From: Bdellovibrionales bacterium
GTDB lineage: Bacteria; Bdellovibrionota; Bdellovibrionia; Bdellovibrionales; UBA1609
Assembly: GCA_023301025.1 (NCBI GenBank)
Contig: JALZUR010000005.1
Span: 10,771 to 74,770 of the forward strand
Direction of reading: 5' to 3'
DNA length: 64,000 nt
A model generated the notes under the pieces. It ran no database searches. It was not told the DNA's origin and saw only the letters and a program-made list of their open reading frames with translations. Position 1 is the first letter of the stretch. Each line of letters begins with the position of its first letter. Positions 12,164 through 18,577 of the stretch are shown in pieces. A program made the position numbers and the translations under genes.

Positions 12164-12790
12164 CTAGTGATGAATTATATCGTGTACTACACCATTTGCA
12201 ATGGCGTTTATTAAAACTAAAGCAATGTTTTCTTCAAAAGATAGACCAGAAGAGTTTGAAGCATTTGAGTAGTCATAGTAAACAACACCATTTAGAGTGT
12301 ATAAGTTTCTGTCATTTCTATCGATACAAATAATTCTATATCCATTGTCTTCATAGTTACGGTTGTTTGATTCATACTGAACAGGGTTACTGTTGTATCT
12401 TCCTTGATCTCTAGCATTTAGTATATCATTGTTACCGTTGTGACAGTTAGCTCCACCAGTAGTTGAAACACATGTGTTTGTTGTAAGACTCCAACCAAAA
12501 CCACCTTCAAAATTTGATTGAGTACGAGTATTTACTTCTCTTGAACCATCTTGCCCAGCGATTCTTGCAGCCACTTGGCCTGATGGACAATTGTAATTTC
12601 CATTATTGAAATCAGGGTTGTTAACACTAGATTTACATTGTGTTCTGTTGTTAAGACTCAAGTACCACCTCTTATCCTCAAAGTCATAATATGAACCTTC
12701 AGTACAGGCTGGGTGAGTTGTTGCGCTTTTTTTATCTCCGCAAGCATTGAGAATTACTAAGCTTAAAAGTGCTAAAATAATTTTTTTCAT
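12164..12790 (-). CDS. Orphan lipoprotein, Asn/Gly/Cys-rich
   Basis: Lipobox ILNAC, SD GAGGT, 208 aa; abuts the argS stop with no gap. Confidence 0.8.
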   Translation of the reverse strand: MKKIILALLSLVILNACGDKKSATTHPACTEGSYYDFEDKRWYLSLNNRTQCKSSVNNPDFNNGNYNCPSGQVAARIAGQDGSREVNTRTQSNFEGGFGWSLTTNTCVSTTGGANCHNGNNDILNARDQGRYNSNPVQYESNNRNYEDNGYRIICIDRNDRNLYTLNGVVYYDYSNASNSSGLSFEENIALVLINAIANGVVHDIIHH

Positions 12791-13064: not shown

Positions 13065-13478
13065 TTATTTAATGCTTTTTTTAACTTCATTATCTGTCTT
13101 CTTAACCTCTTCTGTCTTGGAATTTCCTAAAACAGCAGATGTAGCTTCAGTTAAATCGGCTACTAGTTTTTGGTACAAAGAACTTGTTATAAAGCCTTCA
13201 GAAAATGCAGCACATTTTATAGCTACATTGTCTTTCTTTTGAGTTTCAGTTAATTTTAGTTCTCCAGTTTCAGCGTAACCTTCAAAAGTTTTTGCAGTTT
13301 TGTAAGAAATTTCATAATTTTCAGTGTCAGATAAAGCAAACTCTATATAAGGCAAAATATTAAAGTGTGACTTACACGCTTCAATTCTTTTTTTCTGTAG
13401 TTCATTAAAATTAGTCGCATCAGCATTTGCAACTGAACTGAGTGATAGTAGAGTTATTAATAGTAAATTTATTTTCAT
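13065..13478 (-). CDS. Small secreted hypothetical protein
   Basis: Signal peptide ending SVANA, two Cys, SD AAGGCGG. Confidence 0.75.
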   Translation of the reverse strand: MKINLLLITLLSLSSVANADATNFNELQKKRIEACKSHFNILPYIEFALSDTENYEISYKTAKTFEGYAETGELKLTETQKKDNVAIKCAAFSEGFITSSLYQKLVADLTEATSAVLGNSKTEEVKKTDNEVKKSIK

Positions 13479-13554: not shown

Positions 13555-14589
13555 TTAGTGTTTTACAGTTAAGACAAGTTTACCTGTTGTTTGACGACTC
13601 TGTATGAGTCTATGTGCTTCTCCGACATTTTCAAAATCAACTTCTGTTACAGGAATAGGTTTAATTTTACCTTCTAAAAGTAGTGAGTTTAGTCCATCAA
13701 TACATTCTTTTATAAGATCTTTTTCATCTAAGAGGTAGCTGATGTTAAAGCCTACAACACCTTTATTAGTGGTTATAAAGTCCATTGGGTTAAACTTTGG
13801 AGTTTTAAAAAGTCCTAAAGCTGCTTTGAAGTAATTTAAGTTTCCTTTTTCTGATATAAAATCATGAGCACCGTAAACGATGAGTTTTCCGGTTGAACAT
13901 AGATGCTTGTAAGATTCAGACACTGTTTTATATCCATTAGCATCAAAGATGGCGTTATAGCCCTTTGGCGAAAACTCCTTAGCTTTTATCCATAGATCTT
14001 GTGTAGATTTGTCAATAATCTCATCAGGTGAAAACTGCTCAAGGTACTTTCTTTTATGACTAGAGCCTATAACACCAACTGTGTAAAAGCCTTTAGCTTT
14101 ACAAAGTTGAACAAGAGCAGAGCCCACGCCACCTGCGGCAGAATGAATTAGGACTCGAGATGATTTTGGTAAAAATACATGATGGTTTAGCGCATGAAAA
14201 GCTGTAAAAAAAACTGCTGCAAAGCCTGAAGCTTCGTTAATACTAAAGCCTTCAGGAATGGGCATGACTTGATCTTCAGGTACACAAACTTGTGTGGCGT
14301 AGGCGTTAAACCTAGTAAATGCTAAAACCTTTTGTCCAACTTTAAAGTTTTTAGTGCCTCCTCCAACTTTAATAACTTCACCTGAAACTTCAAAGCCAGG
14401 TGTTATAGGCCAACCAACGTATTTTTTAGCGCTTGAGTAAACACCAAGTCGTACACAAACGTCAGCAAAATTTACTCCAATAGCTTTAACTTTTATTAAA
14501 ACCTCTTGTTCAGATGGTTTAAGGTCAGGGAAGTCTTTAATTATCAATTTGTCAAAAGAGCCAGGCCCTTCAACTACAACTTTTTGCAT
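13555..14589 (-). CDS. MDR-family NAD(P)H:quinone oxidoreductase (VAT-1/zeta-crystallin-like)
   Basis: GVNFAD, TPGFEVSG, VLIHSAAGGVG, STGKLIVYG, TTGKLVL; no Zn-binding Cys cluster. Confidence 0.85.
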   Translation of the reverse strand: MQKVVVEGPGSFDKLIIKDFPDLKPSEQEVLIKVKAIGVNFADVCVRLGVYSSAKKYVGWPITPGFEVSGEVIKVGGGTKNFKVGQKVLAFTRFNAYATQVCVPEDQVMPIPEGFSINEASGFAAVFFTAFHALNHHVFLPKSSRVLIHSAAGGVGSALVQLCKAKGFYTVGVIGSSHKRKYLEQFSPDEIIDKSTQDLWIKAKEFSPKGYNAIFDANGYKTVSESYKHLCSTGKLIVYGAHDFISEKGNLNYFKAALGLFKTPKFNPMDFITTNKGVVGFNISYLLDEKDLIKECIDGLNSLLLEGKIKPIPVTEVDFENVGEAHRLIQSRQTTGKLVLTVKH

Positions 14590-14606
14590 TGCTCAATCCT
14601 TTTAAG

Positions 14607-17105
14607 CTATTGTTTTTGTAATGATTCAACAATACTGGCACAGCCGCCACAGCCAGATCCTGCTTTTTCAGATCCACTTGTTTCATTAAGGATCTGGCCC
14701 TTAGTGACTGACATGCATCTACAAATAATTTCATCAGCATCGACAACTTTTTCGGTTGTGTATTTAATATTTGATGTTTCTGTATCATCTACAGCTTGAA
14801 AGTGTTCTACAACAATTTGACTTCTATCTACTCCAAGTTTTTTTAAGTCTTCAGTTATAGATGATATCATCTTAGGTGGTGCTACTAAATAATAAACAGT
14901 ATCAGCTTTAGAGCTTTCAACAAGTCTTTCTAGATCTGAAAAACTAAGTCTATTTGATTTACTAAGATTTTTTTTGTTAGTGGTGTAGAACTCAACACTA
15001 AAAAAATCACTAAATTCTGAATGGATGTTTAGAAATTCGTCATAAAATAGAGGGCTTCCAGAAGTGCTTGATACTAGGTGTATAGGCCTTTTAAAAATTT
15101 TACTATCTGCATATTTTTGAATTACGCTTCTAATGGGTGTTATACCTACACCTCCAGCAATCATTACTGCAGGCTTATTGGCTCTAAAATTAAGACCAGC
15201 CGTCCCAGTTAATCTTTTCACTGAAATTGAAAAATCTGTACGATTCATAGAACTTAAGTAGTTTTTAAAAGCACTGTCAGATCTTCTATACACAAATTCT
15301 AAAAGTTGTGAATTAGGTCTGTTGGCTAAAGAAAACACGCGTGTTGCATTTTCAGGACTAAGCTCAGTATCTTGAAGTGTTAAAGATAGGGCATCTCCTG
15401 CCTCTAATGGGAAAAGATCTGGTCGCTCTAAAGTTAGTTTTATATATTCTGTGTTTTCTAAAGTTTCAATTGAATGAACCTTCATTAAAGCTTCAGTTTC
15501 TTTTGGTACTATATTAAATCCTTCTAAAGGACTTATAAAAAAGACTTTAAGAGACTCATTTCTAACTATGCTGTTGTTCATGATTTGATAGTCACGAAGA
15601 TTTTCTTTTAAAGATTTTTTTACTAAAACTAGATCTTTTTTATCAACTGCAAAACCAAAATTTGCATGAAGATCCACAACAGTAAGACCTTTTATGTCAG
15701 ATAAGATCTTATCACTTTCGGGTGTATCATAGGTTTCTGCACCTTTAAATAGATTATATTTTTTACGAATCAAGGTGTATAAAAATTTGTGATGTTTCAC
15801 TTCAAAGTCTTCTAACTCGAAGGCTTTATCTCTGTCTTTTTTAGTCCAATCACCTATGTTTTTACGAACACCTTCTCTTTCTTGAATAAGTTCAAACATG
15901 GCTTGTTTGTCGAAACCTTTAAAAGCAGGAGCTTCGTCTACATCTTGAAGAGCAATTTCAGTTTCATAAATTTTCCTTAAAGATTTTAGTGGAACACTTT
16001 TTAGATAGTCTCTAATGAGAATCTCATACTGCACATGAATGTAGGTGAACTCTAAAAAAGTTAAAACAAAAGAATCAGGTTTTGAATTTGAGCTTGTACT
16101 TTTATCTCCAATTTCTTCTTTCAGTTTTTGCAGCATGACCTTTAAACGGTGATTGTAGTTGTCACCTTTTAAGTATTTATATAGACCACCGAATATTGCC
16201 TGATGTTTTATCTCATCTTTGATGAGTTCTAACACCCAACGTTGAGCACTGCCTTTGGAGTGTATGAAGAGCCAAATATAGGCCGATGCTGCATGCCACT
16301 CTGTATCGCTTCTAGATATTAAATGAAAGTATGCATCTTTCATACTAAAGGGATCTAAACCTTCATAGGCTGTAAAATCTTCCTCTCTTGTATCAACTTG
16401 GCCATTTGGATCAATTCTATTTGCAAGTTTTTGTAATACGCCTTCATGACGTGCCTCTTCGTCACACCACGGGTTAGAACAGTATTCAGGTGTTGGAACC
16501 TCATCTATTAGTTCTTCAATCTCTTTTCTAGAAAAGCCATCTAAACTTTCACCTCTATCCATAATTTTTTGTATGGACTGGGTAAAAGTTTTCCCCATAA
16601 ATCTTGCAGCTTGAGGAGATAGGGCTTGAAGAGTGTGACCGCTATTATCAGAGTATGCTTTTATTGGGGCCTCAATTGCTTCAGCTAACCGAGCAACCTT
16701 AGCCCAGTCTTTAGGGCTAACTGCAACAATGTCATCGCTTGTTACAGATTCAAAATCACTTTTTTCTTCATCCCAACTTCTTAGAGACGATTCACTTAAT
16801 CCAAAACGTAAATGACCTAAAAGATCAAAAACATGTTTATCTAAATTTGAAGGTGTAATTAAATCGTTTAACTGTGAGCTTGCAATAGCAAGGGAGTGTC
16901 TAAGATTTTTAAGTTGTGATCTTTTGTTTTGTTTACTCTCAGTAAGAGGTTTAGCTTTACTTTCTGCTACTAATGAGACGGTATTTTTTGATCTTGCAAC
17001 AGTTTGAGACAGATACTCATTACATGTATTTGCGTATAAATTTTTAGTGGTAAACAGTAAACTTAAAAGGATTATTTTTTTTAAATAAGATTTATCAGTT
17101 AGCAT
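14607..17105 (-). CDS. Fusion of a ferritin-like diiron domain, an FNR-type FAD/NAD(P)H reductase and a BFD-like [2Fe-2S] domain, with an N-terminal signal-like peptide
   Basis: IEAPIKAY, WCDEEARH, TEWHAASAY, KDEIKH (diiron ligand pattern); RVFSL, IAGGVGITP, VEHF (FNR family); CRC...CGGC (BFD). Confidence 0.75.
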   Translation of the reverse strand: MLTDKSYLKKIILLSLLFTTKNLYANTCNEYLSQTVARSKNTVSLVAESKAKPLTESKQNKRSQLKNLRHSLAIASSQLNDLITPSNLDKHVFDLLGHLRFGLSESSLRSWDEEKSDFESVTSDDIVAVSPKDWAKVARLAEAIEAPIKAYSDNSGHTLQALSPQAARFMGKTFTQSIQKIMDRGESLDGFSRKEIEELIDEVPTPEYCSNPWCDEEARHEGVLQKLANRIDPNGQVDTREEDFTAYEGLDPFSMKDAYFHLISRSDTEWHAASAYIWLFIHSKGSAQRWVLELIKDEIKHQAIFGGLYKYLKGDNYNHRLKVMLQKLKEEIGDKSTSSNSKPDSFVLTFLEFTYIHVQYEILIRDYLKSVPLKSLRKIYETEIALQDVDEAPAFKGFDKQAMFELIQEREGVRKNIGDWTKKDRDKAFELEDFEVKHHKFLYTLIRKKYNLFKGAETYDTPESDKILSDIKGLTVVDLHANFGFAVDKKDLVLVKKSLKENLRDYQIMNNSIVRNESLKVFFISPLEGFNIVPKETEALMKVHSIETLENTEYIKLTLERPDLFPLEAGDALSLTLQDTELSPENATRVFSLANRPNSQLLEFVYRRSDSAFKNYLSSMNRTDFSISVKRLTGTAGLNFRANKPAVMIAGGVGITPIRSVIQKYADSKIFKRPIHLVSSTSGSPLFYDEFLNIHSEFSDFFSVEFYTTNKKNLSKSNRLSFSDLERLVESSKADTVYYLVAPPKMISSITEDLKKLGVDRSQIVVEHFQAVDDTETSNIKYTTEKVVDADEIICRCMSVTKGQILNETSGSEKAGSGCGGCASIVESLQKQ

Positions 17106-17338: not shown

Positions 17339-18298
17339 ATGAAAAACCTAATTTTAACTGCCATTATTGTGCCTACGTTACTTATTCTTTCGGCCTGTTC
17401 TGATATTCAAGATCATAATCTTGTAGATAACAGTTCTGAGGTAGAGTTTTACGATCTTACTGGTGTCTATAGAACTGTGATTGAGCAAAATGCAGTAGTT
17501 CCTTCTGTGACTTCCATCCAGATCAACACTGGAATTAGTACAAATGATGCAAGTCTTCAGATGTTTAGAAATGGTTTAGGTTACAATGAGGTGCAGTTTT
17601 TTTCAGATCTTGATTTATTAGATTCGGCTGACTCAACATTTGGAAGAGAACTTAGCTTTACAGAACTCAGAGATGGTGAAATTAGTAAGAACAGTGTAAA
17701 CTCTGAAGGTGTTTCAGAGCTTGATCTTTGTACGACAAGTAAATCATTAAATGACCTGTTACTAGAGTTTTATCACTGTATAGAGATCACTAAAGAATTA
17801 GACAGTGACATTTTAGACGGTAGATTGATGCTTCATATTTTAGATCAAGGTGTAGAACTTGCTCCTGTTGAAATTGAATACTCTTTATTTGAAAAAGATA
17901 GGCTTTCTGTTGATTACTTTGGAAATTGGAGTGGTGAAGTTACAAAGCAGAGTAATTACTTTTATGATTTAGAGCTTTTCTCAGGTAATGATTTTTTAAT
18001 CACTTTTCAACCTGTAAATGTAGCAGATTATATTTTAAGACCCTATGATGTGAATCATACTGTTAAAATAGCAGATGAAACCTTTGTTTTTGAGCCTGTA
18101 AATCGTCCTTTATCTGAGCTTGAGCAAAATGCTAACCCCTTTGTAAACTTTGATTTTGTCTCAGAACAAGACGGCTCAAGGCGTATAAGATTTAATAGCA
18201 GTGTTGTAAGACTTGGTAGAATTGAGGGGAATATTCAATTAATTTTACCAAATGGAAGTACAGAGCTTTTGGCTACCTATTGGTTAGAAAAAAACTAG
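17339..18298 (+). CDS. Orphan lipoprotein, acidic and beta-rich
   Basis: Lipobox ILSAC; 319 aa. Confidence 0.8.
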   Translation: MKNLILTAIIVPTLLILSACSDIQDHNLVDNSSEVEFYDLTGVYRTVIEQNAVVPSVTSIQINTGISTNDASLQMFRNGLGYNEVQFFSDLDLLDSADSTFGRELSFTELRDGEISKNSVNSEGVSELDLCTTSKSLNDLLLEFYHCIEITKELDSDILDGRLMLHILDQGVELAPVEIEYSLFEKDRLSVDYFGNWSGEVTKQSNYFYDLELFSGNDFLITFQPVNVADYILRPYDVNHTVKIADETFVFEPVNRPLSELEQNANPFVNFDFVSEQDGSRRIRFNSSVVRLGRIEGNIQLILPNGSTELLATYWLEKN

Positions 18299-18334: not shown

Positions 18335-18577
18335 ATGAAGAAAAAAATGCCACTATTAATCTTTTGTTTAGTGACCCTTAGCTGTGGGCTAGTGTTTTCT
18401 ATGATAAGCTCTACGCAGTCTTCACAGGATAAGGTCCTAGAGAGCAGAATAGAAGTTATCAAATCAAAGTTGGGTAGAGCAAAAGCTCTTAAGAAGAAGG
18501 CTTTGATGAAAGAACTGGCAGAGCTTGAAAATAAGCTTACAGAAAGTTCTAGCGCAGATCGTAAAGATTCAAAGTAA
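18335..18577 (+). CDS. Small membrane-anchored or secreted hypothetical protein
   Basis: Hydrophobic N-terminus followed by a short coiled coil; fits the intergenic gap. Confidence 0.6.
   Translation: MKKKMPLLIFCLVTLSCGLVFSMISSTQSSQDKVLESRIEVIKSKLGRAKALKKKALMKELAELENKLTESSSADRKDSK

What the first reader, a model, noticed from the sequence alone, without database searches (positions are those of the whole stretch)
14607..17105. Apparently self-sufficient diiron enzyme: desaturase-like domain fused to a reductase and a ferredoxin
Seen: the ligand pattern IEAPIKAY / WCDEEARH (16446-16469) / TEWHAASAY / KDEIKH (16203-16217), then an FNR-type FAD/NAD module (RVFSL, GGVGITP, VEHF) and a terminal CRC...CGGC cluster. 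Established: E, ExxH, E, ExxH is the ferritin-like diiron site of soluble acyl-ACP desaturases and related oxygenases, which normally draw electrons from separate ferredoxin and reductase proteins. Inference: the whole electron chain NAD(P)H to FAD to [2Fe-2S] to diiron is in one polypeptide, an architecture I do not recognise. The usual CG before PP in the NAD domain is replaced (YLVAPP), hinting at altered pyridine nucleotide handling.
Basis: partly seen in the sequence, partly recalled or inferred. Interest (0 to 1): 0.85.

Follow-up and report, generated by a model that had tools for sequence, protein, structure and literature searches.

The report
Diiron enzyme fused to its reductase
This gene from a predatory-bacterium lineage joins a previously undescribed ferritin-like two-iron domain to a flavin reductase and a small iron-sulfur domain, so one protein probably carries electrons from NAD(P)H to an oxygen-activating metal site, but its substrate is unknown.

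Summary

- **N-terminal domain (residues 80-535):** no Pfam, NCBIfam or PDB sequence match reaches significance. About 90 relatives exist, all from Bdellovibrionota MAGs or metagenomes. E145, E216/E217-x-R-H220, E269 and D297/E298-x-x-H301 are invariant and make up 8 of the 16 invariant columns.
- **Structure:** a 54-sequence AlphaFold model (pLDDT 93.5) places the motifs on four long helices. The weak fold and profile hits are almost all ferritin-like dimetal proteins, mainly acyl-ACP desaturases and aldehyde-deformylating oxygenase.
- **Electron-transfer domains:** the FNR module is solid. The BFD-type 2Fe-2S domain is sub-threshold here but clear in relatives.
- **Architectures:** relatives occur as N only, N+BFD, N+FNR and N+FNR+BFD, with repeated fusion or loss. 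This argues that the N-domain needs electrons.
- **New findings:** a VAT-1-like NADPH quinone reductase gene lies directly next to it in 8 of 9 contexts (downstream on the same strand in 7). Most members carry a Sec-like leader followed by a Cys, which is hard to reconcile with FAD, Fe-S and NAD(P)H.

The domain is not a member of the desaturase family by any test. The substrate is unknown; a lipid or quinone is my inference. I rate it a new variant of a known kind, interest about 0.6.

The parts
14607..17105 (-). Whole ORF, 832 aa (P0001): leader + ferritin-like N-domain + FNR module + BFD-type 2Fe-2S domain
17031..17105 (-). Sec-signal-like leader (residues 1-25: basic n-region, h-region IILLSLLF, LYA), followed by conserved Cys28 (17022-17024)
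   Evidence: Read from the sequence. About 52 of 67 complete family members have such a leader, and 34 have a Cys within 12 residues after it. There is no twin-arginine motif and no lipobox.
15501..16868 (-). N-domain (residues 80-535), a family without a Pfam, NCBIfam or PDB sequence match. AlphaFold2 model pLDDT 93.5, pTM 0.93, almost entirely helical.
16167..16715 (-). Ferritin-like core (residues 131-313): the four ligand-bearing helices
   Evidence: Helices 52-66, 133-152, 176-202 and 206-234 of the model. Weak Foldseek hits are mostly ferritin-like dimetal proteins.
16653..16676 (-). Motif 1, IEAPIKAY: E145 invariant, E143 conserved in at least 90%, Y151 invariant
16446..16484 (-). Motif 2, YCSNPWCDEEARH: invariant C209, W213, C214, E216, E217, R219, H220. 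Same spacing as AWTAEENRH of castor stearoyl-ACP desaturase.
16278..16304 (-). Motif 3, TEWHAASAY: E269 and Y276 invariant. Aligns with EAFAISAY of aldehyde-deformylating oxygenase.
16203..16220 (-). Motif 4, KDEIKH: D297, E298 and H301 invariant
15501..16166 (-). Conserved helical extension of the N-domain (residues 314-535; PLKSLRKIYETE, LRDYQIMNN), present also in relatives that lack a reductase
14793..15494 (-). FNR-type FAD/NAD(P)H module (residues ~538-771): RVFS, GGVGITP, YLVAPP, VEHF
14625..14729 (-). BFD-type [2Fe-2S] domain (residues 793-827): C795-x-C797...C819-x-x-C822. The loop between the Cys pairs is about 10 residues shorter than in P0004.
13555..14589 (-). Downstream gene, probably co-transcribed (17-nt gap, AAGGA ribosome-binding site): VAT-1-like MDR NADPH quinone/enone reductase, 344 aa, with no leader. 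A conserved partner of the family.

Best explanation
The gene encodes a multidomain oxygen-activating redox enzyme. An FNR-type module takes a hydride from NAD(P)H onto FAD. The FAD passes single electrons to a C-terminal BFD-type [2Fe-2S] cluster. That cluster reduces a carboxylate-bridged dimetal (most likely diiron) site held by E145, E217/H220, E269 and E298/H301 in a new, highly divergent ferritin-like domain. The reduced site activates O2 to oxidise (desaturate, hydroxylate or cleave) a hydrophobic substrate. It works together with the co-transcribed VAT-1-like NADPH quinone/enone reductase. Shown: the domain composition, the invariance of the ligand set, its placement on four long helices, the repeated fusion of the domain to BFD and/or FNR modules, and the conserved gene pair. 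Inferred: the metal identity, the order of electron flow, O2 as co-substrate, and a lipid or quinone as substrate.
For: Domains: FNR; BFD, four aligned Cys. Family: about 90 cluster representatives carry the N-domain. 8 of the 16 invariant columns are the E/EExRH/E/DExxH residues. The model has pLDDT 93.5, with the motifs on helices 52-66, 133-152, 176-202 and 206-234; E269 and E298 lie at matching heights of a helical hairpin. About half of the top 50 Foldseek hits are ferritin-like dimetal proteins: Mn catalase, ADO, the rubrerythrin-like 2fzf (TMt 0.58), R2, stearoyl-ACP desaturase, bacterioferritin and R2lox. 8 of the 12 PDB profile hits are acyl-ACP desaturases aligned on the ligand motif, plus ADO. 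Architectures found are N, N+BFD, N+FNR and N+FNR+BFD; fused forms fall in one clade with SH-aLRT 100 and also at two other places (P0024, P0022). N+BFD without FNR (P0025, P0036) suggests the 2Fe-2S domain is the direct donor. Partner: an orthologous MDR gene (47-64% identical) is adjacent in 8 of 9 contexts. Its nearest solved relatives are VAT-1 (E 5e-45), an NADPH o-quinone reductase implicated in phospholipid transport (PMC7822847).
Against: No fold or sequence match of the N-domain to any known diiron enzyme is significant. Ligand convergence was not measured. Most family members have no fused reductase and no reductase gene nearby apart from the MDR. The Sec-like leader predicts export, and there is no known way to obtain FAD, Fe-S clusters or NAD(P)H outside the cytoplasm. 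The BFD domain of this copy is shortened and sub-threshold. No experimental or expression data could be obtained.
Confidence: 0.68

Rival explanations
1. The dimetal domain has no organic substrate. The protein is an NAD(P)H:O2 or NAD(P)H:H2O2 oxidoreductase, comparable to rubrerythrin, alternative oxidase or Mn catalase, and serves oxygen or peroxide detoxification. The VAT-1-like reductase would feed it through a quinol in the forms that lack a reductase.
For: Rubrerythrin is the most frequent weak Pfam hit (10 of 47 members, best E 0.0014). The top Foldseek hits are Mn catalase and the rubrerythrin-like 2fzf. Fusing an electron-transfer domain to the four-helix bundle is the rubrerythrin design (own knowledge). 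The partner's relatives reduce quinones (PMC7822847), and alternative oxidase is a quinol-oxidising diiron protein (own knowledge).
Against: All hits are below every threshold. The domain is about 450 aa, with a large conserved helical extension (PLKSLRKIYETE, RDYQIxNN) that a simple O2 or H2O2 reductase would not need. The ligand-motif context (WxxEExRH, DEx[KR]H, ExxAxSxY) matches fatty-acyl-handling enzymes rather than rubrerythrin.
Confidence: 0.15
2. The protein is truly exported through Sec and acts outside the cytoplasm, in the periplasm, the envelope or the prey. The N-domain would then work with a different electron source, and the FNR/BFD modules would have an unconventional role.
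For: A Sec-like leader (basic n-region, 10-20-residue h-region, small residues at -3 and -1) occurs in about 52 of 67 complete members, fused forms included. A conserved Cys follows it, and two invariant Cys (C209, C214) could form a disulfide. The lineage consists of predatory bacteria that export many enzymes (own knowledge). First-stage note e1-5261341 raised the same paradox independently.
Against: There is no twin-arginine motif. FAD, 2Fe-2S assembly and NAD(P)H are cytoplasmic. The operon partner has no leader. A subset of relatives lacks the leader altogether.
Confidence: 0.1
3. The conserved Glu/His set does not form a catalytic dimetal site. The N-domain would be a structural, sensing or iron-handling helical domain, and the FNR/BFD part would be the only catalytic unit.
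For: No significant similarity to any diiron enzyme. BFD domains are known partners of the iron-storage protein bacterioferritin (own knowledge).
Against: The canonical six-ligand pattern is invariant across about 20%-identical sequences and lies on four long helices. Independent fusions to electron donors were found.
Confidence: 0.07

Closest known systems
Soluble acyl-ACP desaturases (Pfam PF03405; castor delta-9 desaturase, PDB 1oq4/1afr)
   Same: Six-ligand E/ExxH/E/ExxH pattern. Identical local spacing W-x-x-E-E-x-R-H and D-E-x-[KR]-H. An E-x-x-x-P kink after the first ligand helix. A spacing of 53 residues between the second and third ligand Glu (read from the sequence). A need for 2Fe-2S ferredoxin and an FNR-type reductase (own knowledge). 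These are the best, though non-significant, PDB profile hits.
   Different: Pfam match only in 4 of 47 members at E >= 0.018. hhalign probability 8.8%. Foldseek E 2.7, TM 0.15-0.18. About 100 residues larger, with a different C-terminal helical extension. Reductase and ferredoxin are fused here. The iron-sulfur domain is BFD-type, not plant-type. A leader peptide is present.
Cyanobacterial aldehyde-deformylating oxygenase (ADO; PDB 2oc5, 4kvq, 5k52)
   Same: Ferritin-like diiron enzyme acting on fatty-acyl chains. The helix 3-4 motif E-x-x-A-x-S-x-Y ... D-E-x-x-H-L aligns (E 0.33). Among the top Foldseek hits. Needs ferredoxin/FNR electrons and works with an NADPH-dependent partner reductase (own knowledge).
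   Different: ADO is about 230 aa and stand-alone. The similarity is not significant. Its partner (AAR) is not an MDR protein.
Reductase components of bacterial multicomponent diiron monooxygenases (MmoC, T4moF, BenC-type)
   Same: The FNR-type FAD/NAD module is homologous (E 6e-15 to MmoC; PDB 1tvc E 8e-11; 4wqm). It feeds a ferritin-like diiron hydroxylase through a 2Fe-2S cluster.
   Different: In those systems the reductase is a separate protein with an N-terminal plant-type 2Fe-2S domain. Here it is fused to the C-terminus of the diiron domain, and the cluster is a C-terminal BFD-type domain.
Self-sufficient cytochromes P450 of the CYP116B / P450-RhF type (PDB 6laa, 6kbh)
   Same: One polypeptide contains the oxygenase, an FNR-like flavin reductase and a 2Fe-2S domain. 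The reductase part is a structural hit (ranks 9 and 32).
   Different: The oxygenase there is a haem P450, not a dimetal four-helix bundle, and its flavin is FMN (own knowledge).
Rubrerythrin, and the bacterioferritin-Bfd pair
   Same: A ferritin-like dimetal bundle served by a small fused or bound iron-sulfur electron carrier. Bfd is the founding BFD-type 2Fe-2S protein and docks on a ferritin-like protein (own knowledge). There are weak Pfam Rubrerythrin hits.
   Different: Below the Pfam threshold (15.6 against 22.8 bits). No rubredoxin domain. Much larger, with a conserved extra helical domain.
VAT-1 / zeta-crystallin-type MDR quinone reductases (for the partner gene 13555-14589)
   Same: E 5e-45 to human and rat VAT-1 structures over the full length. 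AAGGVG NADPH motif, and no catalytic zinc GHE motif (read from the sequence). VAT-1 reduces o-quinones with NADPH and is implicated in phospholipid transport (PMC7822847).
   Different: Below the TIGR02824 cut-off (193 against 297 bits). No bacterial VAT-1-like protein has been characterised, to my knowledge.

Membership tests
Ferritin-like dimetal-carboxylate superfamily | Two E ... ExxH repeats supplying six ligands | tested here: met
   E145, E217-x-x-H220, E269 and E298-x-x-H301 are invariant in 54 sequences at 20% mean identity. The motif pair is 77-81 residues apart in all 60-odd members that retain both motifs.
Ferritin-like dimetal-carboxylate superfamily | Four-helix bundle with one ligand motif per helix, converging on one site | tested here: inconclusive
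   The motifs lie on four long helices of a pLDDT-93.5 model. Foldseek hits are enriched in ferritin-like proteins, but all have E >= 0.76 and the best TMt is 0.58.
Ferritin-like dimetal-carboxylate superfamily | Binds two Fe (or Mn/Fe) ions | not testable with these tools
   Needs metal analysis and spectroscopy.
Soluble acyl-ACP desaturase (PF03405 FA_desaturase_2) | Match to the family model at its gathering score | tested here: not met
   No hit for this protein. 4 of 47 relatives hit at E 0.018-1. hhalign against castor desaturase gives probability 8.8%.
Soluble acyl-ACP desaturase (PF03405 FA_desaturase_2) | Shared fold beyond the core bundle | tested here: not met
   Foldseek 2xz1_B: E 2.7, TMq 0.15, TMt 0.18.
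Soluble acyl-ACP desaturase (PF03405 FA_desaturase_2) | Local ligand motifs WxxEExRH and DEx[KR]H | tested here: met
   aWCaEErRHg aligned with AWTAEENRHG. The castor sequence was verified as identical to 1oq4.
Soluble acyl-ACP desaturase (PF03405 FA_desaturase_2) | Acts on acyl-ACP | not testable with these tools
   No ACP or fatty-acid-synthesis genes are conserved nearby.
FNR-type flavoprotein reductase (FAD_binding_6 + NAD_binding_1) | NAD-binding domain model at its gathering score; GGxGxxP motif | tested here: met
   PF00175 scores 28.3 bits against 22. GGVGITP aligns with GGTGLAP of MmoC.
FNR-type flavoprotein reductase (FAD_binding_6 + NAD_binding_1) | FAD-binding beta-barrel with R-x-[YF]-S | tested here: met
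   Pfam FAD_binding_6 is not detected. NCBIfam and PDB alignments do span residues 540-771, with RVFS aligned to RSYS. The model shows a beta-barrel at 519-631. Foldseek E is 2e-11 to 1e-9 to FNR-family structures.
BFD-like [2Fe-2S] domain (PF04324) | Family model at its gathering score | tested here: not met
   13.8 bits against 26 for this protein. Relatives score E 3e-10 to 9e-13.
BFD-like [2Fe-2S] domain (PF04324) | C-x-C ... C-x-x-C ligand set | tested here: met
   C795, C797, C819 and C822 align with the Cys of the relatives. The loop is about 10 residues shorter here than in P0004.
Rubrerythrin (PF02915) | Family model at its gathering score; rubredoxin-type partner domain | tested here: not met
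   15.6 bits against 22.8. No rubredoxin domain is present.
VAT-1-like MDR quinone oxidoreductase (partner gene) | Full-length similarity to VAT-1; NADPH motif; no catalytic zinc site | tested here: met
   E 5e-45 over residues 4-340. AAGGVG is present and GHE is absent (sequence). The score is below the TIGR02824 subfamily cut-off.

The most novel reading that the evidence does not exclude
A family confined to predatory Bdellovibrionota in which a complete NAD(P)H-FAD-[2Fe-2S]-diiron oxygenase carries a functional export leader. It would then be delivered to the envelope or into prey, where, together with a VAT-1-like reductase, it remodels a membrane lipid or quinone. This would be an extracytoplasmic or prey-directed cofactor-rich oxygenase with no known export precedent.
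Probability: 0.1. Interest if true: 0.85.

Novelty: new variant of a known kind. Interest (0 to 1): 0.6.

Why it matters
Ferritin-like diiron oxygenases such as desaturases, ADO, methane and toluene monooxygenases and the recently described BioE (PMC12704756) normally depend on separate ferredoxin and reductase proteins. That dependence limits their use in vitro and in engineered hosts. A natural single-chain version, the diiron counterpart of self-sufficient P450s, would be a useful biocatalyst scaffold. It would also be a clean system for studying electron delivery to a diiron site.

The N-domain is a family that no library describes. Its strict pairing with a bacterial VAT-1 homologue could help define the still unclear biochemical role of VAT-1-type proteins.

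The conserved Sec-like leader on a protein that needs FAD, Fe-S and NAD(P)H is a real puzzle about topology or export in predatory bacteria.

Tried and rejected
1. The profile A2, meant to cover only the N-domain, kept the FNR columns (895 positions). Roughly 40% of the 150 listed representatives were therefore plain FNR proteins. It still returned about 80 N-domain proteins; about 90 were counted once the word-index hits were added.
2. The first AlphaFold run, on the whole protein with 6 sequences, gave pLDDT below 50 over the diiron region. I used it only for the FNR part. The second run, with 54 sequences, was good.
3. PDB sequence and profile searches of the N-domain found nothing significant.
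4. hhalign against castor desaturase gave probability 8.8%, and it aligned motif 2 with the desaturase's second ExxH, which reflects the internal pseudo-symmetry.
5. Foldseek of the good model found no hit at E <= 1e-3.
6. Word-index homologue searches returned few proteins (6, 18 and 5). The genome and metagenome contig scans gave only 1 and 2 loci.
7. I rejected a lipoprotein reading of the conserved Cys because no lipobox precedes it. I rejected a Tat reading because there is no twin arginine.
8. The MDR gene 2.3 kb from P0158 in L012 is only 27% identical, so I did not count it as the partner.
9. Literature searches found no precedent. BioE is a different ferritin-like family.
Paralogues, quinone and lipid pathway content of the genome, the organism's name and transcription could therefore not be checked.
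11. The Rfam and tRNA scans of the window were empty.
Full report
**Observation**

The minus-strand ORF 14607..17105 encodes 832 residues. WCDEEARH is exactly at 16446-16469.

**Electron-transfer domains**

Residues ~538-771 form an FNR-type FAD/NAD(P)H module.
- Pfam NAD_binding_1 scores 28.3 bits against a gathering score of 22.
- NCBIfam models for flavohaemoprotein, MmoC and BenC match residues 540-771 at E 2e-16 to 3e-12.
- The MmoC FAD/NAD domain, PDB 1tvc, matches at E 8e-11. RVFS aligns with RSYS, GGVGITP with GGTGLAP, YLVAPPKMI with YLCGPPGMI, and VEHF with FEKF.
- Even the low-quality whole-protein model returns 267 Foldseek hits at E <= 1e-3; the 50 listed are all FNR-family structures, and they include self-sufficient CYP116B P450s.

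The last ~40 residues carry C795-x-C797 ... C819-x-x-C822. Pfam Fer2_BFD is sub-threshold here (13.8 bits against 26). The four Cys nevertheless align with relatives whose BFD domains score E 3e-10 to 9e-13. This copy has a shorter loop between the two Cys pairs.

**The N-domain is a new family**

Residues 80-535 match nothing in Pfam or NCBIfam above threshold. There is only a weak Rubrerythrin hit at E 0.02. PDB searches by sequence or profile also find nothing significant.

A full HMMER scan of 1.84 billion representatives found about 80 clusters with this domain, and later searches raised the count to about 90. Those that carry a source name come from Bacteriovoracaceae, Bacteriovorax, Oligoflexia or Pseudobdellovibrionaceae MAGs. 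They are annotated only as hypothetical, '(2Fe-2S)-binding' or 'ferredoxin-NADP reductase'.

In a 54-sequence alignment with 20% mean column identity, 16 columns are invariant (P0001 numbering): E145, Y151, G171, C209, W213, C214, E216, E217, R219, H220, E269, Y276, D297, E298, H301 and G314.

**Structure**

With this alignment AlphaFold2 gives a confident, almost entirely helical model (pLDDT 93.5, pTM 0.93). The motifs sit on helices 52-66, 133-152, 176-202 and 206-234 in N-domain numbering. The last two helices form a hairpin in which E269 and E298 lie at the same height.

Foldseek finds no significant PDB neighbour. About half of the top 50 weak hits are ferritin-like dimetal proteins:
- Mn catalase KatB
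- aldehyde-deformylating oxygenase (ADO)
- the rubrerythrin-like 2fzf (TMt 0.58)
- R2
- stearoyl-ACP desaturase
- nigerythrin
- bacterioferritins
- R2lox

In the PDB profile search, 8 of 12 weak hits are acyl-ACP desaturases aligned on the ligand motif (aWCaEErRHg against AWTAEENRHG). One is ADO (EwnAsSaY..DEiKHl against EAFAISAY..DEYLHL). A direct hhalign against castor desaturase gives a probability of only 8.8%.

My reading is a very divergent new family of the ferritin-like superfamily. Its ligand-motif context resembles the fatty-acyl-handling members, but it is not a member of PF03405. I could not measure ligand convergence because model coordinates are not exposed.

**Architecture across the family**

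Among 67 near-complete members there are about 45 N-only, 12 N+FNR+BFD, 8 N+FNR (counting P0022, confirmed by Pfam) and 2 N+BFD forms.
- Most fused forms lie in one clade (SH-aLRT 100), intermixed with N-only forms.
- P0024 and P0022 are fused forms elsewhere in the tree.
- Fusion and loss therefore happened repeatedly.
- The N+BFD forms suggest that the 2Fe-2S domain is the immediate electron donor.
- Fusions seen in many independent assemblies rule out an assembly artefact.

Repeated capture of electron-transfer modules is the strongest indirect evidence that the N-domain is a redox centre needing external electrons.

**Conserved partner gene**

Directly downstream in the window (13555-14589, 17-nt gap, good ribosome-binding site) lies a 344-aa MDR protein. 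An ortholog 47-64% identical is adjacent in 8 of 9 contexts examined. These include a distant N-only member (P0033, N-domain 28% identical), while all other neighbours differ.

Its nearest solved relatives are VAT-1 proteins (E 5e-45). VAT-1 is an NADPH-dependent o-quinone reductase implicated in phospholipid transport (PMC7822847). The partner has no leader and no catalytic-zinc motif.

This pairing is new information. It points to a hydrophobic quinone- or lipid-type substrate, or to quinol-mediated electron supply in the forms that lack a reductase. That is inference.

**The leader paradox**

Residues 1-25 look like a Sec signal peptide, followed by Cys28. A comparable leader occurs in about 52 of 67 complete members, fused forms included. 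A Cys follows within 12 residues in 34 of them.

There is no twin-arginine motif and no lipobox. Export through Sec is hard to reconcile with FAD, 2Fe-2S and NAD(P)H. First-stage note e1-5261341 raised the same paradox independently. I cannot resolve it; topology experiments are needed.

The YLVAPP 'altered pyridine-nucleotide handling' idea is not supported. This position varies within the family (VAPE, VAPD, VGPP, VGSP). The PDB flavin reductase chain 1qfj has YIAGRFEM at the aligned position.

**Verdict**

The most likely reading (about 0.68) is a single-chain NAD(P)H -> FAD -> [2Fe-2S] -> diiron oxygenase or oxidase built on a new ferritin-like family. It acts with a VAT-1-like reductase on an unknown hydrophobic substrate.

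Rivals:
- an O2 or H2O2 reductase with no organic substrate (0.15)
- a truly exported enzyme with unconventional electron supply (0.10)
- a non-catalytic Glu/His set (0.07)

I found no literature precedent for the architecture.

Genome-wide context, organism identity and transcription could not be examined.

Noticed in passing
window 17022-17105 (-): A Sec-like leader followed by a conserved Cys on a protein that needs FAD, Fe-S and NAD(P)H. The leader is conserved in about 52 of 67 complete family members, and the Cys in 34. There is no Tat motif and no lipobox.
   Followed up: partly
window 16464-16484 (-): Two invariant cysteines (C209, C214) frame the first ExxH motif as C-x3-W-C-x-E-E-x-R-H. 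They could form a disulfide, act as a redox relay or bind an extra metal. Known desaturases have Thr at the second position.
   Followed up: no
L001 6001-8983; L002; L007: In the lineages of P0005 and P0006, the diiron gene and its VAT-1-like partner are inserted into the cell-division cluster, after murB; in L001 and L002 the POTRA (ftsQ-like) gene, ftsA and ftsZ follow.
   Followed up: no
P0015 (1502 aa, Bacteriovorax sp. MAG): A family member with a 630-residue N-terminal extension that matches no Pfam family. Another member (P0083) carries a PDZ domain after a truncated N-domain.
   Followed up: partly
window 12164-12790 (-), 13065-13478 (-), 17339-18298 (+), 18335-18577 (+): Four small genes with signal-peptide-like N-termini flank the operon. 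Three were scanned against NCBIfam and matched nothing. The 208-aa one is rich in Asn, Gly and Cys.
   Followed up: partly
window 14506-14799 (+): A 97-codon ORF antisense to the 3' end of the diiron gene and the start of the MDR gene. It is most likely spurious.
   Followed up: no
window 1-64000: There is no tRNA gene and no Rfam family at gathering score in the whole 64 kb.
   Followed up: yes
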